36,977 nucleotides of DNA from a virus: positions 1 to 36,977 of the IMG/VR virus record IMGVR_UViG_3300023240_000005; one strand, given 5' to 3'. The translations under genes were made by a program, and so were the position numbers. Below the pieces are notes generated by a model that saw only the letters and a program-made list of their open reading frames with translations, was not told the origin of the DNA and searched no databases. Positions 5,900-23,303 of this stretch are shown here, piece after piece (the first letter of the stretch is position 1; each line of letters opens with the position of its first letter).

Positions 5900-6132
5900 C
5901 CGAACCCATGAACAACATGAGCAAATCCCAACTGGAGGCATTCGACGACATGACCGCCGACCGCGACCGATGGCGCGACCGATTCGAGAAGCTCGACCGC
6001 GAACTCAAGTCCGAGCTGCGCGACCCCAACGGGACGATCTGGGAGCATGCGGAGAGGTTGCAGGCGGAGCTGGACAAGTTGCGGGCCGCGAACACCGAGT
6101 TGCTCAACATCCACACCGCGCCCCATGCCTAA
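5896..6132 (+). CDS. Coiled-coil hypothetical protein; GTG start overlaps the upstream TGA, with in-frame ATGs at 5908 and 5917
   Basis: ORF of 78 aa containing RDRWRDRFEKLDRELKSELRD...LQAELDKLRAANTELL. Confidence 0.5.
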   Translation: MTEPMNNMSKSQLEAFDDMTADRDRWRDRFEKLDRELKSELRDPNGTIWEHAERLQAELDKLRAANTELLNIHTAPHA

Positions 6133-6895
6133 CCGATACGTCAGAGAGTCAGCCATTGAGTCAGATGCCGTCAATTCGGTGTCTTGGCAGGCCGAAGTGT
6201 TTTGGCGGCGGCTCATCAATCGGGTGGACGATTTCGGCCGAATCGAGGCCCATCTCGGCCTACTTCGTGCCAAACTGTTCCCGCTCCAAATCTCAAAGGT
6301 CAGCACTGCGGACGTGACAAGGCTCCTCTCCGAATGTGAGATGGCCGGGTTGCTGTCAGTCTATGCTGTTGAGGGTAAGGAGTTTGTGGCTATGCACAAG
6401 TGGGAGCAGGGGCGGGCGAGACATAGCCGGTACCCTGATCCACCTCCCGAAATTTGTCAGCGTTTGCAAACATCGGTTTACATTTGCAAACAAGCCCCAA
6501 CAGATGCTCCCGACTCCGACTCCGACTCCGACTCCGACTCCGATTCCGACTCCGATTCCCCCCTACCCCCCAAGGGGGCATTTGAGGCGGAGTTTTCTGA
6601 ATCGTGGAACAAGGCCGTCGAGAAGACGCCCATCCCCGCGCTCCGGCGCGGCATCCCGAAAAGGTGCAAGCGCAACTTCAATGCCCGAACTCAGGACGAG
6701 GAATGGATGGAGTGCTGGGAGGCGGCGTTGAAGGTCGCAATCACCGACCCATTCTACTCGGGCAAGAACGAGCGGGGATGGATTGCGGACATTGAGTGGT
6801 TTCTGCGCCCGAACACCGTGGCCAAAACCCATGCCCGATCAACCCAGCCAGCAGCCCCCACGGGGCGCAAACTCAGCAACGAGGAGGGATTTTGA
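6125..6895 (+). CDS. Putative replication organizer/initiator or helicase-loader-like protein with an internal (DS)8 linker
   Basis: Internal ATG (MPNRYVRESAIESD...). The N-terminal domain looks winged-helix-like (FWRRLINRVDDFGR...LLSECEMAGLLSVY..GKEFVAMHKWEQ). It sits directly upstream of dnaB. The function is inferred from position. Confidence 0.4.
   Translation: MPNRYVRESAIESDAVNSVSWQAEVFWRRLINRVDDFGRIEAHLGLLRAKLFPLQISKVSTADVTRLLSECEMAGLLSVYAVEGKEFVAMHKWEQGRARHSRYPDPPPEICQRLQTSVYICKQAPTDAPDSDSDSDSDSDSDSDSPLPPKGAFEAEFSESWNKAVEKTPIPALRRGIPKRCKRNFNARTQDEEWMECWEAALKVAITDPFYSGKNERGWIADIEWFLRPNTVAKTHARSTQPAAPTGRKLSNEEGF
6512..6559 (+). repeat. Hexanucleotide tandem repeat (GAYTCC)x8 encoding (Asp-Ser)8
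   Basis: gactcc x5, gattcc, gactcc, gattcc read directly. Confidence 0.9.
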
Positions 6896-6898
6896 TTT

Positions 6899-8224
6899 AT
6901 GACCGAGCCACGCCAACTCCCAAACGCCCTAGAGCCCGAGAGGTCCATCCTGTCATCCATGATGCAGGGTGAGGCGGCGGAACACCTCGACAAAGCCGCC
7001 GCCGAGGGCATCACCAAGGCCCATTTCTACGTCCCCGCCCACGGCGTCCTCTACGGCATCCTCCAAGATTTGCGGCGGGACGGACTCCCCATCGAGATCG
7101 TTTCGCTTGGGGAGCGCCTGCGGGAGTTGGGGATGTTGGAGGGCATCGGGGGGCCTTCTGCGCTGATCGAGATATACCGATTCTCTCCGACCGCCGCCTA
7201 TTTCGGCCACCACCTCGGAATAGTCAAGTCGCGGCACTTGGCCAGGGTAGGCATTAAATGCGCATCAGTCGCCATAGGAGAGCTTTACGGGGCGGCGGGG
7301 CAAGAGGAGCAAATTCTTTCGCGCCTCGCTGCGGGCATAGCAGACGCCTTAAAGGGAATTTCCTCAGATTCGGAGGATTATGACGCAAAAGAGCTTATGC
7401 GGAGGTTTTTGGACAACGTGGAGCGGTCCATCGAGGGCAAAAACAATGAGACCATCCCGACCCCGTGGGCCAATCTCAACTCGCTGCTCGGCGGGGGCCT
7501 CGGAATCGGGGAAATAACGTTCCTGGCCGCGAGACCCAGCATGGGCAAAACCGCATTTGCGCTCCAACTCCTCACCAAAGCGGCCGAGGATGGGACTCAG
7601 GGGCAATTTATCAGCATTGAATCAGGCGCGGACAAGATCGCCAACCGACTGGCGGCATCCAAGGGCGCGGGCGACGTTTCCGACCTAAGCAAGGGCAACA
7701 TCACCCGCCGAGACATGGAGGCCATCCAAAAGGCGGTTGCGAGGGTTGAGCGCCTGCCGATCCGCGTCCGCAAAATGCACGGGCCGACCGCCCCCCAAGT
7801 AGCCTCCGCGATCCGAACGGCAGCCCGCGACCACGGGGCGAGGCTCATCGTCATCGATTACCTCCAACTCATCCGGTCCTCCTCCCGGTCCGAGCAGGAC
7901 AACGTCAGGCTCCGCATGGACAACGCCCTCGACACCCTATGCCCCCTCGCGTCCGAGTTGGGTATATGTCTCGTCATCCTCGCTCAACTCAACCGCGACG
8001 CCGAGGGCAAGCTGGGCAAGGACTTGGACCTGTCCATGCTCAAAGAGACGGGCCGCATCGAGCAGGACGCCGACTCAATCCTCATGATCGGGACGGCGCA
8101 CGATCACGAATCTGATGGGGAGGACACCGAACCCCGAGTCGTCAAGGTTCCGAAAAACCGCGACGGCCCGACCAGTTTTGCCCGACTCCAGTTTCACGGC
8201 CCGACAACAACTTTCCACCAATGA
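6899..8224 (+). CDS. dnaB: Replicative DNA helicase DnaB
   Basis: N-terminal PNALEPERSILSSMMQ, Walker A ARPSMGKTAFAL (about 7527..7550), IVIDYLQLI and a RecA-like C-terminal domain. GGAGGG sits 10 nt upstream of the ATG. Confidence 0.9.
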   Translation: MTEPRQLPNALEPERSILSSMMQGEAAEHLDKAAAEGITKAHFYVPAHGVLYGILQDLRRDGLPIEIVSLGERLRELGMLEGIGGPSALIEIYRFSPTAAYFGHHLGIVKSRHLARVGIKCASVAIGELYGAAGQEEQILSRLAAGIADALKGISSDSEDYDAKELMRRFLDNVERSIEGKNNETIPTPWANLNSLLGGGLGIGEITFLAARPSMGKTAFALQLLTKAAEDGTQGQFISIESGADKIANRLAASKGAGDVSDLSKGNITRRDMEAIQKAVARVERLPIRVRKMHGPTAPQVASAIRTAARDHGARLIVIDYLQLIRSSSRSEQDNVRLRMDNALDTLCPLASELGICLVILAQLNRDAEGKLGKDLDLSMLKETGRIEQDADSILMIGTAHDHESDGEDTEPRVVKVPKNRDGPTSFARLQFHGPTTTFHQ

Positions 8225-8280
8225 CCGAACCAATGACCGAACCAATGACCGAACCAATGACCACACCAATGACCGACGAC
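8221..8280 (+). repeat. 12-bp tandem repeat ATGACCGAACCA (3 exact units plus 2 decayed), giving five in-frame ATGs
   Basis: atgaccgaacca x3, then atgaccacacca, then atgaccgacgac. Confidence 0.9.
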
Positions 8281-9617: not shown

Positions 9618-10244
<627 letters not shown>

Positions 10245-10253
10245 AAAAGGATG

Positions 10254-10282
10254 TTGACGGGAATCAAAATAGGGCCTATTCT
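10254..10282 (+). promoter_or_regulatory. Candidate sigma70-like promoter for the 80-aa gene, copy 1
   Basis: TTGACG (10254..10259), 17-nt spacer, TATTCT (10277..10282), lying 22 nt upstream of the ATG at 10305. Confidence 0.35.
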
Positions 10283-10304
10283 TCGCACGTAACCAGCCAA
10301 TAAA

Positions 10305-10547
10305 ATGAAAACGAACACACTCCAATCCGGCACCAAAATCCTGATGAAATACCTCACCCAAAAAGCAACGCTCATCGACGGCAACGGATACATCCAAGGA
10401 TCCGGCCTCGCCGTAATCGACCATGACGACACGATCAGCATTGGTCGCTCCGAGTATCCGAAACACGAACTCACCATTGGCCGCGGTGAGATCGTCAGTA
10501 AGATGTCGGACCCGGCGTGGAGCGTGACATGGGATAAAGCACAGTAG
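10305..10547 (+). CDS. Hypothetical 80-aa protein, copy 1 of 2; moron-like with its own promoter
   Basis: MKTNTLQSGTKILMKYLTQKATLIDGNGYIQGSGLAVIDHDD... GC looks lower than the flanks by eye. Confidence 0.55.
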   Translation: MKTNTLQSGTKILMKYLTQKATLIDGNGYIQGSGLAVIDHDDTISIGRSEYPKHELTIGRGEIVSKMSDPAWSVTWDKAQ

Positions 10548-10640
10548 GCGACGCATTGGCCACCTAAAGCCACCCCCCCGCACCCGCCCGCCCCTCGAAA
10601 GGGGGCCGGGAAAATAAACGAGAAACATTGAAAAAGGATG

Positions 10641-10669
10641 TTGACGGGAATCAAAATAGGGCCTATTCT
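10641..10669 (+). promoter_or_regulatory. Candidate sigma70-like promoter, copy 2
   Basis: Identical to 10254..10282, shifted by 387 bp. Confidence 0.35.
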
Positions 10670-10691
10670 TCGCACGTAACCAGCCAATAAA

Positions 10692-10934
10692 ATGAAAACG
10701 AACACACTCCAATCCGGCACCAAAATCCTGATGAAATACCTCACCCAAAAAGCAACGCTCATCGACGGCAACGGATACATCCAAGGATCCGGCCTCGCCG
10801 TAATCGACCATGACGACACGATCAGCATTGGTCGCTCCGAGTATCCGAAACACGAACTCACCATTGGCCGCGGTGAGATCGTCAGTAAGATGTCGGACCC
10901 GGCGTGGAGCGTGACATGGGATAAAGCACAGTAG
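10692..10934 (+). CDS. Hypothetical 80-aa protein, copy 2 of 2
   Basis: Identical to 10305..10547. Confidence 0.55.
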   Translation: MKTNTLQSGTKILMKYLTQKATLIDGNGYIQGSGLAVIDHDDTISIGRSEYPKHELTIGRGEIVSKMSDPAWSVTWDKAQ

Positions 10935-10973
10935 GCGACGCATTGGCCACCTAAAGCCACCCCCCCGCACCCG

Positions 10974-11001
10974 CCCGCCCCTCGAAAGGGGGCGGGTTTC
11001 T
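10974..11001 (+). terminator. Rho-independent terminator-like hairpin closing the duplicated cassette
   Basis: CCCGCCCC (10974..10981) pairs with GGGGCGGG (10989..10996), loop TCGAAAG, followed by TTTCT. The equivalent sites in copies 1 and 2 have an imperfect stem and AAAATAAA instead of Ts. Confidence 0.55.
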
Positions 11002-11018: not shown

Positions 11019-11327
11019 ATGACAACCATCAAAATCCTCGCCATCCTCAGCCCCGCCCAAACCCTCCGAATTCCGAGGATCACCCTCCGCTCCGACGGAA
11101 CCCTCTGGGCCCGAGACAACACTACCCCGCTAGTCAACAGCAGCGGAACTCTTAACGCGGATCAACTCCGCGTCCTCGTGTCCGAGAAACAGTGGGACAA
11201 GATCCCTGCCGACAACTACATGAGGCTCGGGATCAACCCAGGGGCCAAAGAGTGCATCGACGATGCGCTCCTCGCCATCATCCGCAACAGCGACGGCTAC
11301 AAGGCCGCGCTAGAAGTCCGCGACTAA
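11019..11327 (+). CDS. Hypothetical protein; an alternative GTG start lies at 11004
   Basis: MTTIKILAILSPAQTLRIPRITLRSDGTLWARD...; the ATG follows the terminator hairpin. Confidence 0.5.
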   Translation: MTTIKILAILSPAQTLRIPRITLRSDGTLWARDNTTPLVNSSGTLNADQLRVLVSEKQWDKIPADNYMRLGINPGAKECIDDALLAIIRNSDGYKAALEVRD

Positions 11328-11360
11328 TCTCCAAAACCAACCAACCAACCAACCAAACAA

Positions 11361-11789
11361 ATGACAACCACCGAACAACTCGCCGCCGCCCGTGCCGAAC
11401 AACTCGCCGAACTCCGCGCCGAAATCCGCGCCGAACAACTCGCCGCCGAACTCCTCGACGACCTCCTCGCCGCCGACCTCCGTGCCGCCGCACAACTCGC
11501 CGACACCCGCGCCGACACCCGCGCAGCACAACTCGACGACCTCCTCGCCGACCTCCTCGCCGACCTCCGCGACGACATCCTCGCCGCCGACCTCCGCGCC
11601 GCCACCCGCGCCGACCTCCGTGCCGAACTCCGCGACGAACTCCGCGCCGAACTCCGCGACGAACTCCGCGCCGCCCTCCACGCCGCCGAACAACTCGCCG
11701 CCGCACAACTCGCCGACCTCCGCGCCAGCCACATCACCGAGGAAACAGCAGCCACCTACACCGCCGCCAGCGACCCCGTCCAGCCCTAA
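11361..11789 (+). CDS. Low-complexity (xxLR)n tetrapeptide-repeat protein, paralog A
   Basis: MTTTEQLAAARAEQLAELRAEIRAEQL...ADLRAELRDELRAELRDELRAAL. It shares its leader (CCAA-rich ...caaacaaATGACAACCACCGAACAACTCGCCGCC) with paralog B. All six frames are open here, so the frame was chosen from the conserved start and from coupling. Confidence 0.45.
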   Translation: MTTTEQLAAARAEQLAELRAEIRAEQLAAELLDDLLAADLRAAAQLADTRADTRAAQLDDLLADLLADLRDDILAADLRAATRADLRAELRDELRAELRDELRAALHAAEQLAAAQLADLRASHITEETAATYTAASDPVQP

Positions 11790-11816
11790 CCCCTCCCAAA
11801 CCAACCAAACAAACAA

Positions 11817-12155
11817 ATGACAACCACCGAACAACTCGCCGCCGACCGCGACGAAGAACTCGCCGACCTCCGAGCCGACCTACGCGCCGACCTCCACGCC
11901 GCCGAACAACTCGCCAACCTCCGCGCCAAACAACTCGCCAGCATCCGCGACGAACTCCTCGCCGACCTACGCGCCGACCTCCGCGACGACCTCATCGCCA
12001 AACTCCGCGACGAACTCCTCGACGACATCCTCGCCGACCTCCTCGCCGACACCCGCGCCGAACAACTCGCCAAACTCCGCTCCAACCTCCGCGCCGCCGA
12101 ACAACTCGCCGACCTCCGCGCCAGCCAACTCGCCGCCGGAAACTTCCAGTCATGA
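11817..12155 (+). CDS. Low-complexity (xxLR)n repeat protein, paralog B
   Basis: Same N-terminus MTTTEQLAA. It ends AAEQLADLRASQLAAGNFQS, with its stop overlapping the next ATG (ATGA at 12152..12155). Confidence 0.45.
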   Translation: MTTTEQLAADRDEELADLRADLRADLHAAEQLANLRAKQLASIRDELLADLRADLRDDLIAKLRDELLDDILADLLADTRAEQLAKLRSNLRAAEQLADLRASQLAAGNFQS

Positions 12156-14824: not shown

Positions 14825-16668
14825 CCGATACCGAATACCTCCGCGAGACGTTCGACGGGATTGTGCAGACACCGTTCCAGGGCGATATTATGGAGTGGTC
14901 GGATGGGAAATTGAAAATCCCGTATTCAGTTCGGTATCCGATTTACATTGCAAGCGAATCGCCTTGGCTGATTGAGACGCTTAGAGCGTTATCAGATCCA
15001 AAGATTCGGCGCGTCGATGTGAGGATGCCAGCGGGAGCAGCGAAGTCGCTTATCGGGGAGATCCAGATTGCCCATTGCCTAGCGGAAGATCCGGGATTGT
15101 ATTACTACGTATGGCAAACGGATGATGACGCAAAAGACGCGATGGAGGATCGCATTTACCCGATGATCGAGGCGAACGAATTCCTCGCGAAACGGATGCC
15201 TGTTGATCGGAACAAGAAGCGTGGGATGAAGATCGCGGCCCCGCACATGAGCCTTTACGCGGTGGGGGCAAATCTTTCGGCGGCCCAGTCGAAGCGGGTG
15301 AAGTGGTTGACGATGGAGGAGCCGCACCTTTACGGACCTGGGATGATGACGGCTTTCGAGAAGCGAGTTGAAGGGGTGAAAGATTACAAGATCCTGACCC
15401 TATCGACTGGCAGCGTTCTAGGCGATGAGTCGGACGATTCTTTTAATGCAGGTTCATGCGACGTATGGCAAGTGCCGTGCCCTTATTGTAATCAGTTTCA
15501 AACGATGAGCGATCACAAGGATAGGCTTAGATCAAAAATTGATAAGGATACCTGCGACGAGAACGGGGATTACAACTGGTCTAAAATCCTGCCCACCGTC
15601 CGATATAATTGCGAGCATTGCGGAATGGACTGGCCGACCGATGAGGCTTCAAGAAAAGATCAATCGCAACTAGGCAGATACATCTCTACGAATCCGAACG
15701 CGCCAGAAGATCACAGATCGTTCCACATGGAGGCGGTATCAGTGCATTATTTCCCATTGCCAAAGCTATTGATGGAGAAGATCCGCGCAAGTTACGCGGC
15801 AAAGCGTGGAGCAATGGAGCCCCTGAAGGACTACATTCAGAAACGGAGGGCGATGGCTTGGGATGAATCTCCTATCGACTCCGACCAAGACGCGGCCTTT
15901 GATCGGTCGAAAGGCAACTATCACAAGCGGGAGGATTTTGAGGGAGAGAAAACGCGGTTTATCTGTATCGACAACCAAGCGGGGAAGGCGTCTCGGGGAG
16001 AGGGAGCGCATCGTTGGTATGTGTGTCGCGCGTTCGGCGCGGACGAGTGCCGCCTGATCGATGAGGGCAAGATCACGTCGTGGGAGGAGATGGAGGAGAA
16101 GCGGATTGAGTTGGGGGTTGAGACGGGTCGGACGCTGGTGGACATCGCGTTTGACACGGCGGCGGTGCAGGCTGTGTGCGTTCGCTACGGGTGGATGGGC
16201 CTTTGGGGCGACATGACGAACAAGCGTTCGTTCCCGCATCATGAGCCGGTGACGGTGAACGGGAAGCCCGATAGGCTCACGCGGAACTATCCGTTCTCTC
16301 CGTCGAACATCGGGCATGTGGGGATCGGGAAAGAAGGGATTCGGCGGCAGGCTCGTTACTTTTTTTGGTGTCAGAATCCTATCAAGGACATGTATCATCG
16401 GCTCCGGCTGGGGATGAGTACTTACCGATGGACGGTTCCGCAGGACGTCTCGGAGGATTACCGAAAGCAGACGCAAGCGGAATACAAGACGATCACCATC
16501 GAGAAGAAGACGGGGCGGAAGGTGCGGGCGTATAAATCCAAGGGGGACAACCACCTTGGGGACTGCGACCAGATGTGTCTGGTGTCAGCGATCATGGACC
16601 CGAATCTGAGGGCGTTGCTGTGGGGTGCGGAGGACGAGAAAGAGGATGAGGAGGAAAAAAAGGGTTGA
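14821..16668 (+). CDS. terL: Terminase large subunit, lambda GpA-like
   Basis: 615 aa. P-loop-like MPAGAAKS, acidic LTMEEPH, and the GpA-style zinc module CPYCNQFQ...NCEHCG. Confidence 0.85.
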   Translation: MTDTEYLRETFDGIVQTPFQGDIMEWSDGKLKIPYSVRYPIYIASESPWLIETLRALSDPKIRRVDVRMPAGAAKSLIGEIQIAHCLAEDPGLYYYVWQTDDDAKDAMEDRIYPMIEANEFLAKRMPVDRNKKRGMKIAAPHMSLYAVGANLSAAQSKRVKWLTMEEPHLYGPGMMTAFEKRVEGVKDYKILTLSTGSVLGDESDDSFNAGSCDVWQVPCPYCNQFQTMSDHKDRLRSKIDKDTCDENGDYNWSKILPTVRYNCEHCGMDWPTDEASRKDQSQLGRYISTNPNAPEDHRSFHMEAVSVHYFPLPKLLMEKIRASYAAKRGAMEPLKDYIQKRRAMAWDESPIDSDQDAAFDRSKGNYHKREDFEGEKTRFICIDNQAGKASRGEGAHRWYVCRAFGADECRLIDEGKITSWEEMEEKRIELGVETGRTLVDIAFDTAAVQAVCVRYGWMGLWGDMTNKRSFPHHEPVTVNGKPDRLTRNYPFSPSNIGHVGIGKEGIRRQARYFFWCQNPIKDMYHRLRLGMSTYRWTVPQDVSEDYRKQTQAEYKTITIEKKTGRKVRAYKSKGDNHLGDCDQMCLVSAIMDPNLRALLWGAEDEKEDEEEKKG

Positions 16669-16701
16669 CTGGCGTAGGCGGTTAGGGTATCAACGGGACA
16701 G

Positions 16702-16857
16702 ATGATTTGTCCGCACTGCAATAAGTCCCTGCCCGATTCGACGATTGCCAAGCATTTGGCAGCGAAGGGGGGGAGGAAGAGCAGGCGGAAGATCACGCCG
16801 GAGCAGCAAGCAATGATGCAGGCGGCGAAGGCAAAGAAGAAAAACAACACTAAATAA
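16702..16857 (+). CDS. Small basic CxxC protein, 51 aa; below the ORF-track cutoff
   Basis: Manual translation gives MICPHCNKSLPDSTIAKHLAAKGGRKSRRKITPEQQAMMQAAKAKKKNNTK. Confidence 0.3.
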   Translation: MICPHCNKSLPDSTIAKHLAAKGGRKSRRKITPEQQAMMQAAKAKKKNNTK

Positions 16858-16862
16858 AAAAT

Positions 16863-17423
16863 ATGAAAATTGCAACATGTAACCTGACATCACACGCGCC
16901 ACTCCTGCAAAGCCGGATGCACGCGACGGACAAGCTCGACCGGGAGACCGCTCAGGATTATGAGGAGCGCGTTTGGAAAAACAAGGCGCACATCGACAAT
17001 GACGGGAATGTTTTCATCCCCGGCGTGGCGTTCAAAAAGGCGATGCAAGACGCGGCGAAGTTCCTCAACATCCAGATTCCCGGAAAGGGGAAATCGACCT
17101 ACACCAAGCATTTCAAGTCTGGGGTGATGGTGTTTTCCAACGTGGAGACCGGGAACAAGGAGAGCGACATCCTCAAGCGTCCGATCAACTGCAACTCGGA
17201 TGGGGTTGCGGGTTCTGGCAAGCGGGTTCTGCGGTTTTTCCCGGAACTCACCTCATGGGAGGGGACGCTGATCGTGCATGTCCTGGACGACACGGTGACA
17301 AAAGACATCTTGGAGCAGGTTCTCGTGGCCGCTGGACAGTTCATGGGGGTTGGGGCGTTCCGTCCGCAGAACGGGAATGGCTCCGGGATCTTCGCGGTTG
17401 AGGACATCGAGTGGGATAGCTGA
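16863..17423 (+). CDS. Hypothetical protein with a C-terminal Gly-rich motif
   Basis: ORF of 186 aa ending GQFMGVGAFRPQNGNGSGIFAVEDIEWDS. The repeat array begins immediately after its stop codon. Confidence 0.55.
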   Translation: MKIATCNLTSHAPLLQSRMHATDKLDRETAQDYEERVWKNKAHIDNDGNVFIPGVAFKKAMQDAAKFLNIQIPGKGKSTYTKHFKSGVMVFSNVETGNKESDILKRPINCNSDGVAGSGKRVLRFFPELTSWEGTLIVHVLDDTVTKDILEQVLVAAGQFMGVGAFRPQNGNGSGIFAVEDIEWDS

Positions 17424-17630
17424 TTTTCCACCACAACACTGCACAGCACGGCACCCCACAACACAACACGACACGACAACCGCTTTTCCGGCACCACACC
17501 GCACTGCACTGCACGTCACCCCACAACACAACACGACACGACAACCGCTTTTCCGCCACGCCACGCCACTTCACCCCACAACACGCCACGCCACGCCACG
17601 CCACAACCCGACCCGACACGACAACCCTTC
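17424..17630. repeat. Upstream arm of the C/A-only repeat array: 2 exact 22-mer cores plus 1 degenerate
   Basis: CGACACGACAACCGCTTTTCCG at 17469..17490 and 17534..17555. A degenerate copy lies at 17608..17630. TTTTCC sits at 17424, right after the stop. Confidence 0.9.
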
Positions 17631-17643
17631 TACCAAAAAAAAT

Positions 17644-18132
17644 ATGAACACAGATACCAAGCCAATCGCAACAATCGGCCTCGACGCCCAACTCATCCGC
17701 AAGCGGATCGAGTCAATGGAGGTAGGCGAAATCGTCTCCTATTCCGATCTTGAGGAAATCACCAAGCGTCCCCTGAACGAACTCCGGGGAAGTTTCTACA
17801 CCGCCGCCCGGCAGGTCTTCCGGGAGTTCGGCTGGACGTTCGGACCAGTCAAGGGAGTCGGATACAAGCGCCTCGACGCCGCCGAAAAGCTCGATACCGT
17901 CGAAGGCAAGCGAAAGCACATCCACAAGACGGCGCGTCGGGCGGGAGCCGTGTTGGCTTCGATCAAGGTCTCGGAACTGCCGCAAGAGCAGCAGGTGAGG
18001 CACAATCTTGAGGTGTCATTCGCGGGAGCGATTGCGCTGGCCACCGGGAAGAAAGCCACGCGGTTGATTGCCGAAAAGGCGGCATCGGCTCCACTCCCCG
18101 GCATCGAAGTTCTCTCGCTTTTCGCCAAGTAG
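17644..18132 (+). CDS. Winged-helix-like DNA-binding protein embedded in the repeat array
   Basis: Internal ATG after an A8 leader. IVSYSDLEEITKRPLNELRGSFYTAARQVFREFGWTFGPVKGVGYKRL resembles a wHTH with a GYxRL wing. Confidence 0.55.
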   Translation: MNTDTKPIATIGLDAQLIRKRIESMEVGEIVSYSDLEEITKRPLNELRGSFYTAARQVFREFGWTFGPVKGVGYKRLDAAEKLDTVEGKRKHIHKTARRAGAVLASIKVSELPQEQQVRHNLEVSFAGAIALATGKKATRLIAEKAASAPLPGIEVLSLFAK

Positions 18133-18730
18133 CTTTTCCGCCACTGCACTGCACCCCACTTCACTTCACTTCACAACCCGACACGACCCGACACGACAAC
18201 CGCTTTTCCGTCACAACACATCACAGCACACCACACAACACCACACCACAACCCGACCCGACACGACAACCGCTTTTCCGGCACCGCACGGCACAGCACA
18301 TCACCCCACATCACAACCCGACACGACAACCGCTTTTCCGACACATCACGGCACTCCACCACACTGCACTACACCTCACGCCACGACCCGACCCGACACG
18401 ACAACCGCTTTTCCGTCACAACACATCACAGCACTTCACATCACCTCACTACCCGACCCGACACGACAACCGCTTTTCCGCCACGCCACAGCACTTCACA
18501 TCACCTCACTACCCGACCCGACACGACAACCGCTTTTCCGACACCCCACTGCACTTCACACCACTTCACCCCACAACACAACCCGACACGACAACCGCTT
18601 TTCCGGCACCTCACCGCACTGCACCGCACGTCACCCCACAACACAACCCGACACGACAACCGCTTTTCCGCCACGTCACTGCACTGCACCCCACTTCACT
18701 TCACTTCACAACCCGACCCGACACGACACG
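18132..18730. repeat. Downstream arm of the C/A-only repeat array: 8 exact 22-mer cores plus truncated and degenerate ends
   Basis: Cores start at 18189, 18259, 18319, 18394, 18459, 18519, 18584 and 18649, spaced 70/60/75/65/60/65/65 bp. The variable segments are phased NCACN pentamers. Confidence 0.9.
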
Positions 18731-18743
18731 CCCCCCCGAGCCG

Positions 18744-19763
18744 TTAATAAATCACCCTTGCGTCAACCACCGAATCCGCCGAGTTCGTGTTCTCGGTGAC
18801 GATGAAGCGCAGGAACTCGGTCGGCAGGGTGAACAGCGCGAACGTGGTTGTCCCCGCCCCTAGCGTCAACTCCCCCTCCTCCGTGTCGAGCCAGTTGACT
18901 TGATCCGTCGCGGTCTGGAACTTGACCTTGATCGCCAGCTCGTTGTAGATGCGGTAGGCGGCGATCCTCCCGCCGACTGCGACCGTTACCGACGTTGCCA
19001 GAAGCTTTCCTGGGAGCGTGTCGGTTAGGTGATCCTCGCTGGCAAACGTGATCGAGTTTTCCGTCGTGGCCACGGTGGGGGAAAGCGAAAAGAGCAACGT
19101 CCCGTCCACCCCGCCCATCGCAATCCGCTTTGCGAAGTTGGCAGCCGACTCGGTCATGACGGCCGCGAGTTGGCGCAGGCACGGGACGCGGTCGGTTAGG
19201 GTGACGACGGTGGTGTCCACGGTGGCGGAATAGATCGGATGCGCGAGAGTTCTGGCGAAATAGTCTGGCCCTGAAGTCCCGTCGGCATTGATGGCCCGCT
19301 TGAGTGCCAGCATGGTGTCGGTGGCCGAGGCCCCGATTTGGACATCGTAGGCGGCGGCCATCGTGGTTTTGAATCGGTAGGTCCGCTTAAAGTTTGCGTC
19401 ATCGATGCCCACTACCAGCGTGTCTCCGTCTGAGGGATTGGAAATCGCCGCAACGTCACCAATGGCGGCGGTCCCCTCCGAATAGCATCGGATGTTCCCG
19501 CTGGGCGTTCCGCTGGCCGCGCCACGGGTGATGGCGGTAAATTCTCTGGTGGAAATCTTCTCGGCCAGCCCGTATCCTGTCAAATTGGCGGAAATCGTCT
19601 CAACCTCAGGAGCGTCGCTGATGGTCCCGTAAACCTTGAGCGAGGTCACTTCGGTGGCCAAATCCTGCCGAACAACGATTAGGGTGGCGGCTGCGGGCTG
19701 GGTGGTGATGGGGTTGGCCCCTGACGTTCGGAAGGCGGAGGAGGACATTTCGAGACAATCCAC
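18744..19763 (-). CDS. Hypothetical beta-rich protein, the only convincing minus-strand gene; possible jelly-roll/carbohydrate-binding-like C-terminus; alternative start at 19748
   Basis: ORF of 339 aa containing DGDTLVVGIDDANFKRTYRFKT...IGASATDTMLALKRAINADG. It ends FLRFIVTENTNSADSVVDARVIY. Confidence 0.6.
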   Translation of the reverse strand: MDCLEMSSSAFRTSGANPITTQPAAATLIVVRQDLATEVTSLKVYGTISDAPEVETISANLTGYGLAEKISTREFTAITRGAASGTPSGNIRCYSEGTAAIGDVAAISNPSDGDTLVVGIDDANFKRTYRFKTTMAAAYDVQIGASATDTMLALKRAINADGTSGPDYFARTLAHPIYSATVDTTVVTLTDRVPCLRQLAAVMTESAANFAKRIAMGGVDGTLLFSLSPTVATTENSITFASEDHLTDTLPGKLLATSVTVAVGGRIAAYRIYNELAIKVKFQTATDQVNWLDTEEGELTLGAGTTTFALFTLPTEFLRFIVTENTNSADSVVDARVIY

Positions 19764-19836
19764 TACCCCAAATAATTCGCAAATGCAACAATTTTGCGGT
19801 TGCTAATCCTTAGTAAGTTGATAAGGGTAGTCAACA

Positions 19837-20100
19837 ATGGCAGTCAAGCAGACCTTGGTTGGGCTGGATGCAGCTGATTTAGAGGCGATTAGAGACGCCT
19901 GCAAGGGTTGCATCATCGCCCAGACAGTCCGAGGGGTGTCATACACCATCGCGGGGAGAAGCTTCTCTTTCCCCTCCTTGGAGTCTGCGGCCAACATGCT
20001 CCAAGAGGCAAATTACGCCCTTGGACTGCTTTCTGGGACCTTCGCCCAGGTGGTCAGGGCCAACTTCAATCCCGGCATGGGTAGGGGGAGGCGCGGATGA
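19837..20100 (+). CDS. gpW-like head-tail joining (head completion) protein
   Basis: Small protein immediately upstream of a lambda-type portal and ATGA-coupled to it. LEAIRDACKGCIIAQTVRGVSYTIAGRSFSFPSLESAANMLQEANYAL resembles the lambda W pattern. Confidence 0.5.
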   Translation: MAVKQTLVGLDAADLEAIRDACKGCIIAQTVRGVSYTIAGRSFSFPSLESAANMLQEANYALGLLSGTFAQVVRANFNPGMGRGRRG

Positions 20101-23100
20101 AAGAGTTCCGCCCAAACCTCCTAGACCGCGCCGTCTCGGCCATCGCCCCCGCAGCAGGGATGCGTCGGATGGCGGCGCGGCAAGCTCTCCACCTGCTCAG
20201 TTACGACGGGGCGCGGCAATCCACAAAGCGATCCTCCGCCCCCCAAAACATCTCCCCGAACAGCTTCGATGTCCAGCGGGACCGATTGCAGCTCATGCGG
20301 GAGGCCGAAGACCTAGAGCGGAACTTTGCCCCAGCAAAGCACCTCAACCGGAAATATGCGCTCTATACCTCCCCGATCAGCTACCATGCGGCAACGGGTG
20401 ACAGCGGGCTAGACAAGGAAGTTGAGGCGTATCTGAACGATGAGGTTTTTCCGAATTGCGATGTCACCGGCCGCTTCGATTTCTTCAAAATGATGGAGTT
20501 CGGGGTGATGGGGTGCAATCGGGGAGGAGATTACGGATGGGCGTTTCTCCGCCCCGAGTTGGAAGAGGGGATGAGCGAGGAGGAGGCGTTGCAGCTCGAC
20601 CTAAAGATTCAGGCGGTTGAGCCGGATCGTATCGGCGGGATCTATCAGAACGTAGTTTCCAACGACTATGTTTCTGGATGTATCATCGGGGCCTATGGAG
20701 GGATTGACGCCTTCCGCGTGTTCCATCGGAGCATGACGACGAGCGTTTACGACAATCCCGTGGACATCCCGGCTGACCAGTTCGTGCATTTGGTTGACCC
20801 GATGCGGATCGACATGTATCGGGGTGTTTCTGTCCTCTCGACCGCCGTCCAGAATCTGCGGGACATCTACGAGATGGTGGACTCTGTTAAGGGCAAGGCG
20901 AAGTTGGCAAGTGCTCTAACAGTATTTACAAACTCCAACGGGGCCACGGTGGGAAGCGGGGCATTCGACCCCTACGGGACGACGGTTGACCAGTCTGGTG
21001 GATCGTCAGCATTGCAGCAGGACATCGCATTTGGGCAAATCAACCACCTTGCGGCGGGTGCGGACATCAAGTTTCCAACCAGCAATTCCCCTTCTTCCGA
21101 GGAGCAGGCGCTGATTACCCTGCTCCTGAAGTTTGTGGCGATGAGCTACGGGCTCCCCTACTCTTTCGCGCTGGACGCATCAACCCTTGGCGGCGTCAGC
21201 AGTCGCCTAGAGTCCGAGATGGCCAAGGCTGAATTTGAGCGCGGCCAGCGCGTCCTTTCGCCGCACGCCCATCGGATTAAGAACACGTTCCTGATTGACG
21301 CCATCGCCAAGGGGGTTTTCCCCATCGAGGTGTTGGGACAGATCACGAAGGGGCGTTGGGGATACAGACCGCATCCTCAACCCGACATCGGCAAGGAAGC
21401 GTCAGCGGCCGTCAATCTCTACCAGAGCGGCCTTCTCGACCCGATGAAGCATTGGGTGGACAACGCGCAAGACCCCGAGGCGGTGGCGGATGCGATGGCG
21501 CGTTGGGCGATCATCAAGCGCGACACGGCCAAGCGGCATGGCCTTGACGAGCAGGCTGTATTCGGGGCAGGTCCAGCGAAGCCTCTATCCCAGACGGAGA
21601 GCGCCACCGAGAGCACGACCATTGACGCTGCCAAAAAGGAGCTTTCCCGCCACGAATTCGCCAAGGAATCAACCGAATCGATGCGGCAGCGCGTGGCCGA
21701 CAAAGAGAAGGCGGGCAAAGACGTTGCATCCGAGAAGGAGGCATTGATTGCGGACTTGCGATCAAAGGAATCCAGCGGGGCCGATGCAAAGGAAATCCAA
21801 GCGGGGAGGGTGGCAATTGACCGCATTAAAAGCGATTTAGAAGACGCCTATGGGGAGCTTCGCAGGGCCAGGGCGATTCTGACGAAGCGGGAGACAGATG
21901 AAGGAGCAACCGACAAAGCAAAGACGCCGAATAAGGCGAATGCGAAGAATCGGGACGAGATCCACGCCTTTGTCGAGGCGCTGAAAGGGCAAGGATACCC
22001 AGAGCAGGAAGCCTACGCCATCGCCTACGACATCGTGGACAGCGGCAAATTTTCATGGAGCAAGCTACCTGCCAACATTCAGGCGAAATACAATCTGGAG
22101 CGGAAGGAATTCAAATCCAACCCGATCTTCAACGAAGAAGATCATTCTCGGGATGATGACGGCAAGTTCGGTCCAGGCGGAGGAGGCGGAGGAGGATCTA
22201 GCAGCAAGGACGATACTAAATCCAGAGCAGACTACAGAAGCTCCAGAGCATCCGTAGGAAATATGAAGCAAGCTAAAGTTACAGGTGAAGGAGAGAACGC
22301 AACTCTAACGATGAGCGATGGGAGACCTCTGCCTGCTCATATAAAACCTTCGATGATACCCCCAGCGTATCGTCATGATATGCAAATCGCGACAGACAAG
22401 GATTCTGATGTTTGGGCAATCAGCCGAGACGAAAAAGGAAGCTCCAAGAGGGTATATAACCCTGCTTACTCGGAAAGGCAGAAAGAGACCAAATGGGCAA
22501 GAGTGAATAATGGAGTTGCTGAGTCACAAGCAATCCGCTCTAAGATACATAACGACATCAATCAGGGAGAGAACAAGGAAGAGGCGGCTGCGACATGGCT
22601 CATGTCAATGCAGGCGACTCGGCCCGGAAGTGAGAGTGACACCAAGGGGAGCAAGGCACTATGGGAAGTGCCGATCACAGCGGAGAACGTAACCATCATC
22701 CCCTCGAAAAACTCCAAGGATCTACCGAAAGTAGTTCTTCAGGTTGGAGACGATCAGATTCCGATCAGGGACGAAGCAGCAAGGAGGGAAATTCTATCCC
22801 GTGTCGAGTCTGGCAAAGAATTTAGGGACGCGGGATATTGGATTAAATCCTACGGAGCAACAACGCTAGAGGGCAGGCACGTTATTCCAGACGGCGACGG
22901 GGTGAGGTTGCAGTTCATGGGCAAGGAGGGGGTTTGGCATGATCACAAGATTTCTGACCAGAACCTTGCGAAGAATCTGCTGGATCGGAAGCAGCAATCA
23001 GGAGACGGGGGTAAGCTGTTTAATACGGATTACGCCAAGGTTTCAAAATACACCAACTCGCTAGGGAGCGGAATCTACAGTGCTAAAGACCTCCGCACGA

Positions 23101-23303
23101 TTCGCGCAAACGAGCTGGCATCGGACATCATCGGGTCATCGGCGCGAGAGTTTGACTCGGACGCTGACAGGAAAAGCTTCATCAAGGACGTGGCAATCAA
23201 GGTTTCGGGAGTCCTCGGAAATAAACCTCAACAAGCACTTGAATCGTATATCAATCCCGCCGTCTTCGACGCGCTGAAAGTATCTAACAAAAAAGCAGCA
23301 TGA
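20097..23303 (+). CDS. Portal protein (lambda gpB-like) with a long C-terminal extension ending in a topoisomerase-IB-like domain
   Basis: The portal call rests on position and the N-terminal pattern (SYDGARQSTKRS...RDRLQLMREAEDLERNFAPAK). For the C-terminal motifs see the findings. Confidence 0.8.
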   Translation: MKEFRPNLLDRAVSAIAPAAGMRRMAARQALHLLSYDGARQSTKRSSAPQNISPNSFDVQRDRLQLMREAEDLERNFAPAKHLNRKYALYTSPISYHAATGDSGLDKEVEAYLNDEVFPNCDVTGRFDFFKMMEFGVMGCNRGGDYGWAFLRPELEEGMSEEEALQLDLKIQAVEPDRIGGIYQNVVSNDYVSGCIIGAYGGIDAFRVFHRSMTTSVYDNPVDIPADQFVHLVDPMRIDMYRGVSVLSTAVQNLRDIYEMVDSVKGKAKLASALTVFTNSNGATVGSGAFDPYGTTVDQSGGSSALQQDIAFGQINHLAAGADIKFPTSNSPSSEEQALITLLLKFVAMSYGLPYSFALDASTLGGVSSRLESEMAKAEFERGQRVLSPHAHRIKNTFLIDAIAKGVFPIEVLGQITKGRWGYRPHPQPDIGKEASAAVNLYQSGLLDPMKHWVDNAQDPEAVADAMARWAIIKRDTAKRHGLDEQAVFGAGPAKPLSQTESATESTTIDAAKKELSRHEFAKESTESMRQRVADKEKAGKDVASEKEALIADLRSKESSGADAKEIQAGRVAIDRIKSDLEDAYGELRRARAILTKRETDEGATDKAKTPNKANAKNRDEIHAFVEALKGQGYPEQEAYAIAYDIVDSGKFSWSKLPANIQAKYNLERKEFKSNPIFNEEDHSRDDDGKFGPGGGGGGGSSSKDDTKSRADYRSSRASVGNMKQAKVTGEGENATLTMSDGRPLPAHIKPSMIPPAYRHDMQIATDKDSDVWAISRDEKGSSKRVYNPAYSERQKETKWARVNNGVAESQAIRSKIHNDINQGENKEEAAATWLMSMQATRPGSESDTKGSKALWEVPITAENVTIIPSKNSKDLPKVVLQVGDDQIPIRDEAARREILSRVESGKEFRDAGYWIKSYGATTLEGRHVIPDGDGVRLQFMGKEGVWHDHKISDQNLAKNLLDRKQQSGDGGKLFNTDYAKVSKYTNSLGSGIYSAKDLRTIRANELASDIIGSSAREFDSDADRKSFIKDVAIKVSGVLGNKPQQALESYINPAVFDALKVSNKKAA

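What the first reader, a model, noticed from the sequence alone, without database searches (positions are those of the whole stretch)
17424..18730. Ten exact 22-mers in a C/A-only, pentamer-phased repeat array that brackets a small winged-helix gene
Copies of the core:
- The core CGACACGACAACCGCTTTTCCG occurs exactly at 17469 and 17534, upstream of CDS 17644..18132.
- It occurs exactly again at 18189, 18259, 18319, 18394, 18459, 18519, 18584 and 18649, downstream of that CDS.
- Degenerate copies lie at 17608..17630 and 18711..18730.
- Truncated cores (TTTTCC at 17424, GCTTTTCCG at 18132) abut the stop codons of the two flanking genes.

Spacing and composition:
- Core-to-core spacing is 65 | 70, 60, 75, 65, 60, 65, 65 bp, always a multiple of 5.
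- The variable segments are built of phased NCACN pentamers. For example, 18281..18340 reads gcacc gcacg gcaca gcaca tcacc ccaca tcaca acccg acacg acaac cgctt ttccg.
- Outside the core the + strand is almost purely C/A and the - strand G/T.

Why it is neither CRISPR nor coding:
- The variable segments are related to one another. 18141.. matches 18671.. except for one extra pentamer, and 18211..18229 equals 18416..18434. They are therefore not CRISPR spacers.
- The long + ORF reads the core in all three frames (DTTTAFP / TRQPLFR / HDNRFSG), so the array is not coding.

Possible functions:
- A few copies upstream and many downstream of a small DNA-binding gene recalls iteron-controlled replicons (P1 repA with incC/incA) and centromere arrays (F sopC).
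- I see no integrase in this genome, so plasmid-like maintenance or another array-binding function is conceivable.
- Alternatives are a packaging or hijack recognition array, a transcribed CA-rich (or antisense GU-rich) RNA, or structure-forming strand-asymmetric DNA.

I do not recognise this architecture as a described element.
Basis: partly seen in the sequence, partly recalled or inferred. Interest (0 to 1): 0.85.

Follow-up and report, generated by a model that had tools for sequence, protein, structure and literature searches.

The report
Phage VIPR guide-RNA array, CAC variant
The repeat array is most likely a bank of about twelve guide RNAs of a VIPR system, a phage RNA-guided DNA-silencing system first described in 2026 and related to CRISPR, but here the constant part of each five-base repeat is CAC rather than the published GGY.

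Summary
The 22-mer occurs 10 times exactly (0 expected), and all spacings are multiples of 5. It recurs in independent assemblies.

It is not an iteron or centromere array. The gene just upstream (16863..17423, 186 aa) is a Vipr protein, a small Cas7-like RAMP:
- its family profile hits the solved SUSP1 Vipr (E 2.6e-7; hhalign 96%);
- its AlphaFold model (pLDDT 95) matches Cas7, Csm3 and Cmr6.

The bracketed 162-aa gene is a winged-helix protein of the Vap1 accessory family. It sits next to vipr in 81 of 87 related loci.

The arrays have the anatomy of VIPR guide RNAs (vrRNAs):
- units are 12-16 pentamers;
- each pentamer has three constant bases and two hypervariable bases (NN);
- a sister phage about 96% identical keeps the genes and the 22-mer but has entirely different NN.

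The constant triplet is CAC, not GGY. Relatives carry GGC, CGC, GAC, GTC or CTC on the vipr strand. The triplet co-varies with Vipr G-loop and thumb residues.

The tail is unstructured and the whole array keeps one 5-nt register.

No natural target was found, and expression is untested.

Verdict: a new variant of a very recently described kind.

The parts
16863..17423 (+). vipr: 186-aa Vipr protein, a small Cas7-like RAMP and the predicted vrRNA-binding filament subunit
   Evidence: Homology: the family profile hits PDB 36pp_D 'SUSP1 Vipr protein' at E 2.6e-7. hhalign against SUSP1 Vipr gives 96.4% probability, E 1.3e-9, over 140 columns.

Structure: the AF2 model has pLDDT 95.2. Top Foldseek PDB hits are all Cas7-type RAMPs: type VII Cas7, Csm3, Cmr6 and Cas7-11, with E 7e-8 to 1e-5.

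The family has 461+ homologues.
17424..17643 (+). vrRNA array A, between vipr and vap. It has three units in one 5-nt register: 17427..17486, 17487..17551 and 17552..17631. The last unit has a degenerate tail that runs into the A-rich leader of vap.
   Evidence: The pentamer parse is tccGN (cacNN)n (cccGA/cacGA)2-4 caaCC gctTT. Exact 22-mers lie at 17469 and 17534. The array starts directly at the vipr stop codon.
17644..18132 (+). vap: 162-aa accessory protein of the Vap1 family, with an N-terminal winged helix and a C-terminal helical bundle
   Evidence: Structure: the AF2 model has pLDDT 95.8. Foldseek gives only weak hits, all of them wHTH DNA binders.

Homology: the family has 2524 relatives. 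hhalign against SUSP1 Vap1 gives E 5.8e-5 and a shared GVGY(K/R) motif. The family HMM hits SUSP1 Vap1 at E 5e-6.

Synteny: a homologue sits next to vipr on the same strand in 81 of 87 loci.
18133..18731 (+). vrRNA array B, with nine units of 12-15 pentamers: d0 18137..18206, d1 18207..18276, d2 18277..18336, d3 18337..18411, d4 18412..18476, d5 18477..18536, d6 18537..18601, d7 18602..18666 and d8 18667..18731. The last unit has a truncated tail.
   Evidence: Exact 22-mers lie at 18189, 18259, 18319, 18394, 18459, 18519, 18584 and 18649. The whole array is in a single register, and 78 of 119 pentamers start with CAC. One sample (L234) has it collapsed to a single d0/d8 hybrid unit.
18189..18210 (+). 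One example of the invariant 22-mer (10 copies). It comprises the last constant pentamers and 3' tail of one unit (..GA cacGA caaCC gcTTTT) plus the first bases (tccG) of the next unit.
   Evidence: It is identical in all 10 copies. It is also identical in the sister phage contigs L001 and L230-L232, whose guides differ. The + strand RNA is unstructured, with MFE 0 to -2.2 kcal/mol.

Best explanation
The region 16863..18731 is a VIPR (Viral Interference Programmable Repeat) locus: vipr, then 3 vrRNA units, then vap, then 9 vrRNA units, all on the + strand.

Proposed mechanism, by homology with the SUSP1 system of the 2026 preprints:
1. The locus is transcribed rightward.
2. Vipr protomers polymerise on the RNA, one per pentamer.
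3. Each protomer buries the constant triplet (here CAC) and exposes the two variable bases.
4. The string of NN dinucleotides in a unit (about 6-10 variable ones) pairs with double-stranded DNA of a competing phage, satellite or prophage, skipping every third target base.
5. The filament blocks transcription of that target. The winged-helix Vap enhances the effect.

The invariant 22-mer is the constant 3' end of one unit joined to the start of the next.

Shown here:
- homology and fold of both proteins;
- the pentamer anatomy;
- hypervariability of NN between near-identical phages;
- the strand;
- lineage-specific constant triplets that co-vary with Vipr residues.

Inferred only:
- transcription and processing;
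- RNP formation on CAC repeats;
- the 1-nt-skip rule for this clade;
- silencing, and the identity of the targets.
For: **(1) Vipr identity**

**(2) Published definition**
- A VIPR system is Vipr, a vap gene, and vrRNAs of 9-16 pentamers.
- Each pentamer has 3 constant and 2 hypervariable bases, and the vrRNA ends in an invariant 3' tail.
- vrRNAs lie upstream and downstream of the genes (bioRxiv 10.64898/2026.04.26.720920).
- The SUSP1 reference locus that I fetched shows GGTnn repeats on the vipr strand on both sides of vipr-vap1.

**(3) Unit size**
- Window units are 12-16 pentamers.

**(4) Hypervariability**
- L001 and L230-L232 are about 96% identical in the flanks and have a 100% identical Vap.
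- Their 22-mers are exact, but every NN string and the unit number differ.
- L072, L073 and L075 differ by whole units.

**(5) Relatives**
- Eighty IMG/VR loci carry this Vipr clade.
- Nearly all have pentamer arrays abutting vipr on its strand.
- The triplets are GGC, CGC, GAC, CAC, GTC or CTC, and position 3 is always C.
- This fixes the + strand and places CAC in a series that includes the canonical GGY.

**(6) Covariation in 62 distinct proteins**
- Base 2 = G goes with Arg at the G-loop position aligned to SUSP1 D177: 44/44 versus 4/18, p 1e-10.
- Base 1 = C goes with Arg124 (24/28 versus 2/34) and with His20 (27/28 versus 5/34).
- The window has Ala165 in place of the G-contacting Asp.

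**(7) Synteny**
- Vap sits next to vipr in 81 of 87 loci.

**(8) Self-targeting**
- There is none above shuffled controls, as reported for VIPR.
Against: - No natural target was found for any guide. I searched local loci and ran five exact IMG/VR pattern scans.
- There are no expression data.
- The constant triplet has no G. The SUSP1 contacts are G-specific, and the text of the preprint lists only YNNGG, NNNGG, YNNNG and NNNNG.
- There is no structured or pseudoknot tail and no ribozyme. How units are separated is therefore unknown.
- The covariation is confounded by phylogeny.
- The reference mechanism rests on two unreviewed preprints.
Confidence: 0.88

Rival explanations
1. Iteron or centromere array. 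The winged-helix protein binds the 22-mers as duplex DNA to control replication, partition or packaging.
For: - A winged-helix protein is bracketed by direct repeats.
- The locus lies between the terminase and portal genes.
- No integrase was seen among the ORFs scanned.
Against: - The phage has a separate O-like initiator with its own internal repeats, plus DnaB.
- In relatives the arrays follow vipr. They exist where vap lies on the other side of vipr (L072, L073) or has no array after it (L004, L077).
- The 22-mer differs between close relatives while the CACNN frame is kept.
- Strict strand polarity and hypervariable dinucleotides have no role in an iteron model.
Confidence: 0.03
2. The array is a VIPR-type array but is read from the other strand, as (GUGNN)n RNA with a 5' handle.
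For: The published motifs are G-rich, and the minus strand is G/T-rich. Target searches cannot tell the two strands apart, because the predicted protospacers are reverse complements of each other.
Against: - In SUSP1 and in about 80 relatives the canonical GGY/GGC repeats are on the vipr strand.
- Position 3 is always C on that strand, matching the pyrimidine pocket described for Y3.
- On the + strand the invariant part lies 3' of the repeats, as published.
Confidence: 0.03
3. Decoy or sponge. The array does not guide anything. It titrates a Vipr protein, its own or a competitor's, or another C-rich-RNA binder such as Rho.
For: - Copy number is unusually high, at 12 units.
- The RNA is unstructured, C-rich and G-poor.
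- No target was found.
Against: A sponge needs no hypervariable NN or strain-specific guide sets. The locus encodes its own co-varying Vipr.
Confidence: 0.03
4. A functionless, fast-evolving minisatellite, or simply an unstructured leader without a Shine-Dalgarno sequence that helps translation of vap.
For: - Pentamer runs such as TT TT TT and GC GC GC GC look like replication slippage.
- A deletion variant exists (L234).
- Both genes start after A-rich leaders without a Shine-Dalgarno sequence.
Against: - The triplet frame is conserved across Vipr proteins only 45-75% identical, while NN is not.
- The larger array lies downstream of vap and faces a convergent gene, so it leads nothing.
- The triplet co-varies with Vipr residues.
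Confidence: 0.02

Closest known systems
VIPR systems, in particular the type II locus of Escherichia phage SUSP1 (vipr, vap1, vrRNA1-4). Sources: bioRxiv 10.64898/2026.04.26.720920 and 10.64898/2026.04.26.720927.
   Same: - A homologous small RAMP (Vipr) and a homologous winged-helix accessory protein (Vap1-like).
- Phage-encoded.
- Guide arrays on the vipr strand flanking the genes.
- Units of 9-16 pentamers with three constant and two hypervariable bases.
- An invariant 3' part.
- A pyrimidine at triplet position 3.
- No self-targets.
   Different: - The constant triplet is CAC, not GGY, so there is no G at positions 1 and 2.
- The G-loop Asp177 that reads G1 in SUSP1 is Ala here. The Arg138 that contacts G2 aligns with Phe in this clade.
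- The tail is unstructured, with no pseudoknot.
- Units are packed head to tail in one continuous 5-nt register, with no room for separate promoters.
- An array sits between vipr and vap.
- There are 12 units against 4 in SUSP1.
- Function, processing and targets are untested.
Class 1 CRISPR-Cas effector backbones (Cas7, Csm3 or Cmr4/6 filaments on crRNA)
   Same: The RAMP fold is shared (top Foldseek hits). One protomer binds per fixed number of guide nucleotides, with a periodically flipped base.
   Different: - There is no CRISPR repeat-spacer array, no cas1/cas2, and no other cas genes.
- The guide information is non-contiguous: 2 of every 5 nucleotides.
- 'Spacers' share a constant frame.
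TRAP-type periodic RNA recognition (Bacillus trp attenuation protein binding 11 (G/U)AG triplets separated by 2-3 nt). This comparison is from my own knowledge.
   Same: A protein oligomer reads a constant triplet every 5 nt on unstructured RNA.
   Different: The fold is unrelated, and the oligomer is a closed ring rather than a filament. The spacer nucleotides carry no information. This is an analogy only.
   Same: Direct repeats lie on both sides of a small DNA-binding gene.
   Different: The repeats here are strand-specific pentamer-coded units tied to a RAMP gene. The replication module lies elsewhere. The repeats are hypervariable between strains.

Membership tests
VIPR system | Encodes a Vipr protein: a small single-RRM RAMP with a G-loop and a thumb | tested here: met
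   Profile against PDB 36pp SUSP1 Vipr: E 2.6e-7. hhalign: 96.4%, E 1.3e-9. AF2 pLDDT 95, with Cas7-type RAMPs as top structural matches. A G-loop GVGAFRP aligns with SUSP1 GVGDWRP.
VIPR system | vrRNA genes next to vipr on the same strand: tandem pentanucleotide repeats (9-16 per guide) with three constant and two hypervariable positions | tested here: met
   There are 12 units of 12-16 pentamers, and 108 of 160 in-register pentamers start with CAC. The NN differ completely between phages about 96% identical. The strand is fixed by relatives and by SUSP1.
VIPR system | The constant motif is GGY, or one of the listed alternatives NNNGG, YNNNG or NNNNG, which all keep G at position 2 | tested here: not met
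   The triplet is CAC (in the preprint's notation, CNNCA). Only the pyrimidine at position 3 is kept. The preprint does allow 'a related consensus' in a figure I could not see. Relatives of the same Vipr clade do carry GGC.
VIPR system | An invariant 3' tail after the repeat tract (a pseudoknot in the SUSP1 clade) | tested here: inconclusive
   An invariant 3' segment exists: the 22-mer..GA cacGA caaCC gcTTTTCC. It is unstructured (MFE 0 to -2.2 kcal/mol, no better than shuffles) and stays in the pentamer register. Relatives end in (xxxAA)3 followed by a G(G/C)(A/T)TTTT tail.
VIPR system | A vap accessory gene next to vipr (a DNA-binding winged-helix or HTH protein in types II, VI and VII) | tested here: met
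   The fold is a winged helix plus a helical bundle. hhalign against SUSP1 Vap1 gives E 5.8e-5 at 66% probability. The family HMM finds SUSP1 Vap1 at E 5e-6 and a homologue beside vipr in 81 of 87 loci.
VIPR system | vrRNAs are expressed, processed to about 100 nt or less, and co-purify with Vipr | not testable with these tools
   No RNA data are available. There is no sigma-70-like promoter and no + strand terminator in 16400..20200, which fits co-transcription but proves nothing.
VIPR system | Guides match natural targets in other mobile elements under the 1-nt-skip (NNx) rule, with no self-targets | tested here: inconclusive
   There are no self-matches above shuffled guides. There are no convincing targets in the local loci or in five exact IMG/VR scans. 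Mismatch-tolerant searches of whole collections were not possible.
CRISPR array | Identical repeats separated by unique, unrelated spacers, usually with cas genes or a leader | tested here: not met
   The 'spacers' all share the CACNN frame and share sub-blocks. There are no cas genes other than the solo RAMP. There is no Rfam hit.
Iteron or centromere array | Repeats serve the replicon's own initiator or partition protein and are conserved as its binding sites | tested here: not met
   A separate O-like initiator with internal repeats and a DnaB gene are present. The arrays track vipr rather than the winged-helix gene. Binding itself is not testable here.

The most novel reading that the evidence does not exclude
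The CAC-type locus represents a retuned, orthogonal Vipr-vrRNA recognition mode. A few G-loop and thumb substitutions switch the buried triplet from GGY to CAC, with GAC, GTC, CGC and CTC in sister lineages.

Its guides are stored as one continuous, unstructured, in-register pentamer tract. Unit boundaries would then be set by the protein filament or by constant 'punctuation' pentamers, not by a folded tail, a ribozyme or separate promoters.

This would give a natural series of mutually orthogonal Vipr/vrRNA pairs and a second way of making guides.
Probability: 0.4. Interest if true: 0.75.

Novelty: new variant of a known kind. Interest (0 to 1): 0.6.

Why it matters
VIPR was proposed in 2026 as an RNA-guided DNA-recognition system older than CRISPR. 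So far it is characterised only for GGY/NN guides.

This locus, and the series of relatives found with it, show that the 'constant' triplet is evolvable and tracks specific Vipr residues. That gives three things:
- a direct, testable map of which residues read which base;
- candidate orthogonal protein-guide pairs for multiplexed use;
- a warning that searches for YNNGG repeats will miss whole lineages.

The locus also shows a compact way of packing 12 guides with no folded tail. That raises the question of how such guides are cut apart.

Tried and rejected
- Near and protein-level searches of cultured phage genomes with the locus and the 162-aa protein found nothing.
- Scans of metagenome and genome collections with 18 bases of the core gave only single, chance-level matches. 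One 20-base match lies in a repeated element of a Gemmatales MAG. About one such match is expected by chance.
- Rfam: no family matched, and no hammerhead was found.
- Pfam, PHROGs and PDB sequence searches of the 162-aa protein were uninformative until a profile was built.
- Replication origin, cos/pac site, telomere-like repeats, Chi-like sites, Rho or Hfq sponge, DGR and phase-variation repeats were all considered. I dropped them once the Vipr homology appeared. There is no reverse transcriptase, and the origin lies elsewhere.
- The target searches under the NNx rule found nothing convincing:
  - The local loci gave no enrichment for skip 1 over skips 0, 2 or 3.
  - Long guides did no better than shuffled guides.
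  - The IMG/VR scan of guide d3 gave 0 hits.
  - The up2/d7 scan gave 26 hits with no flank extension.
  - The L001 13-NN guide seed gave 45 hits, mostly one conserved in-frame PENTLE peptide motif with chance-level flanks.
  - The d8 and d4 scans gave 103 hits in contigs of median 37% GC, which is chance.
- The preprint's supplementary text was searched for a CAC-type consensus. None is mentioned, and the figures are not held.
Full report
**Observation**

The 22-mer CGACACGACAACCGCTTTTCCG occurs 10 times exactly, all on the + strand at the stated positions. There are no near-matches, and none is expected by chance. Spacings are 65 | 70, 60, 75, 65, 60, 65, 65.

Read in a single 5-nt register, the downstream array is 119 pentamers, of which 78 begin with CAC. 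The upstream array is 41 pentamers, of which 30 begin with CAC. The maximum in 1000 shuffles was 17.

In that register the 22-mer is not a foreign block. It is a run of constant pentamers: cccGA cacGA caaCC gctTT tccGN. Each unit therefore reads tccGN (cacNN)6-10 (cccGA/cacGA)2-4 caaCC gctTT, which is 12-16 pentamers.

'C/A-only' holds for the constant positions only. The two variable positions use all 16 dinucleotides, and the arrays are about 80% C+A outside the cores.

The window is a circular assembly of a phage genome of about 36.95 kb (28-bp terminal overlap). An independent ENA assembly reproduces the array with one base difference, so the array is not an artefact.

**Genomic context**

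The genome encodes Erf, SSB, RusA, an SNF2 helicase-methylase, an O-like initiator with CCGACT x8 inside the gene, DnaB, a gpA-type large terminase, a lambda-type portal, a major head protein and an endolysin.

The array region lies between the terminase and portal genes. The order is:
- TerL;
- a 51-aa ORF;
- the 186-aa gene (16863..17423);
- array A;
- the 162-aa gene (17644..18132);
- array B;
- a convergent 339-aa ORF.

**The key comparison**

Contig L001 (IMG/VR), and L230-L232 from three other samples, are about 96% identical to the window in the flanking genes. They encode an identical 162-aa protein and carry the exact 22-mer. Every NN string is different, and the upstream array has four units instead of three. 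The dinucleotides are therefore hypervariable on a conserved scaffold.

Phages whose 186-aa protein is 71-74% identical also have (NNCAC)n arrays starting at that gene's stop codon, but with a different constant tail. One tail is ..CGACGAAAGATTTCCG and another is ..CGCCATCCATCGGATTTCCCG. These phages differ from each other by whole units. The arrays therefore follow the 186-aa gene.

**Identity of the proteins**

The 186-aa protein:
- It belongs to a large family, with 461+ hits.
- A profile of the family hits one solved structure, PDB 36pp 'SUSP1 Vipr protein', at E 2.6e-7.
- hhalign against the SUSP1 protein gives 96.4% probability and E 1.3e-9.
- The AlphaFold model (pLDDT 95.2) matches Cas7-type RAMPs: type VII Cas7, Csm3, Cmr6 and Cas7-11.

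Two 2026 preprints describe Vipr:
- VIPR systems consist of Vipr, an accessory vap gene and vrRNAs.
- vrRNAs are made of 9-16 pentamers in which GGY is constant and NN is hypervariable, followed by an invariant 3' tail.
- Vipr forms a filament, one protomer per pentamer. It buries GGY and presents NN.
- NN pairs with dsDNA while skipping every third target base, and this silences competing phages.

The SUSP1 locus that I fetched has GGTnn repeats on the vipr strand, before vipr and after vap1.

The 162-aa protein:
- It has 2524 relatives.
- Its high-confidence model is a winged helix followed by a helical bundle. Structural matches are weak but all are wHTH DNA binders.
- It is distantly related to SUSP1 Vap1 (hhalign E 5.8e-5; hmmsearch E 5e-6).
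- A homologue lies beside vipr on the same strand in 81 of 87 loci of this clade.

**Strand and variant motif**

I examined 80 IMG/VR loci encoding this Vipr clade, all oriented with vipr on the + strand. Nearly all have pentamer arrays abutting vipr on that strand. The constant triplet depends on lineage:

| Triplet | Approximate number of loci |
|---|---|
| GGC | 37 |
| CGC | 27 |
| GAC | 9 |
| CAC | 8, counting the window (the others fetched in earlier calls) |
| GTC | 2 |
| CTC | 2 |

Position 3 is always C. Two things follow:
- This fixes the transcribed strand.
- CAC belongs to a series that contains the canonical GGY.

The preprint's text lists only YNNGG, NNNGG, YNNNG and NNNNG. All of these keep G at position 2, so CAC, GAC and GTC are not described there. 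I could not see its figures.

The triplet co-varies with Vipr residues in 62 distinct proteins:

| RNA base | Vipr residue | With that base | Without that base | p |
|---|---|---|---|---|
| Base 2 = G | Arg at the G-loop position aligned to SUSP1 Asp177, which reads G1 in SUSP1 | 44/44 | 4/18 | 1e-10 |
| Base 1 = C | Arg124 | 24/28 | 2/34 | 6e-11 |
| Base 1 = C | His20 | 27/28 | 5/34 | 2e-11 |

The window has Ala165 at the G-loop position. These associations are confounded by phylogeny, but they fall in the elements that contact the triplet in SUSP1.

**Differences from the described systems**

- The + strand RNA is essentially unstructured (MFE 0 to -2.2 kcal/mol, no better than shuffles).
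- There is no pseudoknot tail and no ribozyme.
- Units are packed head to tail with all lengths multiples of 5, so there is no room for separate promoters.
- No sigma-70-like promoter and no + strand terminator are predicted in 16400..20200. This fits one long precursor but proves nothing.
- How units are separated is unknown. I infer cleavage in the exposed AACCGCUUUUCCG linker, or boundaries set by the non-CAC pentamers.
- An array lies between vipr and vap. This is common in this clade.
- Twelve units is a large set.
- One sample has array B reduced to a single hybrid of its first and last units, which are near-identical. This indicates recombination within the array, or assembly collapse.

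**Targets**

- No guide matches the phage's own genome better than shuffled guides do, as reported for VIPR.
- I found no natural target:
  - Local loci gave nothing.
  - Five exact pattern scans of IMG/VR gave only chance-like hits.
  - Mismatch-tolerant searches of the big collections were not possible.
- This point stays open.

**Verdict**

The iteron or centromere reading is not supported.

The region is a VIPR locus, with confidence about 0.88. It has a non-canonical CAC constant triplet, an unstructured in-register tail and an expanded guide set.

It belongs to a kind of system first described in April-June 2026. It differs from what those papers describe in the feature they treat as the signature, so I rate it a new variant of a known kind, with interest 0.6.

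Noticed in passing
window 20097..23303: The 1068-aa portal protein is a lambda-type portal (aa 49-356) fused at its C-terminus to a domain resembling the catalytic core of eukaryotic-type topoisomerase IB (PF01028, aa 917-1044, E 1e-10). The same fusion is called in independent contigs.
   Followed up: no
window 10172..10993: A 387-bp unit is repeated 2.1 times at 100% identity. Each copy carries an 80-aa ORF with no Pfam hit. It could be a very recent duplication or an assembly artefact.
   Followed up: no
window about 11300..12140: Two blocks of about 20 degenerate 12-nt repeats (CGCCGACCTCCG) lie in a strongly C-rich stretch (GC skew -0.38). The stretch is open in several + frames. The 388-aa frame reads RRPPRR low-complexity sequence, so the true coding frame is unclear.
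   Followed up: partly
window 6047..6895 (repeats at 6510..6559): The O-like replication initiator gene contains CCGACT x8.3 tandem repeats, probably the origin iterons, as in lambda O. A second 12-mer x5 repeat lies at 8217..8276.
   Followed up: partly
window 16702..16857: A 51-aa basic ORF with a CPHC motif lies between TerL and vipr. It is conserved in the same place in sister contigs L230-L234 and has no Pfam hit. It may be a further small component of the locus.
   Followed up: no
L044 2540..2700, L051 6360..6520, L059 4310..4470 (Gemmatales MAG JBBRLG01): Three contigs of one Gemmatales (Planctomycetota) MAG share a repeated element of about 160 bp that contains 20 of the 22 core bases (GACACGACAACCGCTTTTCC) outside any CACNN context. 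About one such 20-mer is expected by chance in that collection, so this is at most a weak host clue.
   Followed up: partly
L234 3765..3860 (ENA ERZ27315625, contig of 34,412 bp): In this otherwise identical phage, the nine-unit downstream array is replaced by a single unit that is a hybrid of the first and last window units. This is either a recombinational deletion or an assembly collapse.
   Followed up: partly
window 18744..19763 (minus strand): A 339-aa ORF converges on the end of array B and has no Pfam or PHROG hit. With the VIPR locus it forms an insertion between the terminase and the head-tail connector and portal genes.
   Followed up: no
L088 2266..3857 (IMG/VR 3300036798_000368): A relative has CACNN tracts of about 60 or more consecutive pentamers on both sides of vipr, with no recognisable tail between guides. 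The tracts are punctuated only by occasional tac, gac, ccc or cat triplets. This is an even more continuous form of the array.
   Followed up: partly
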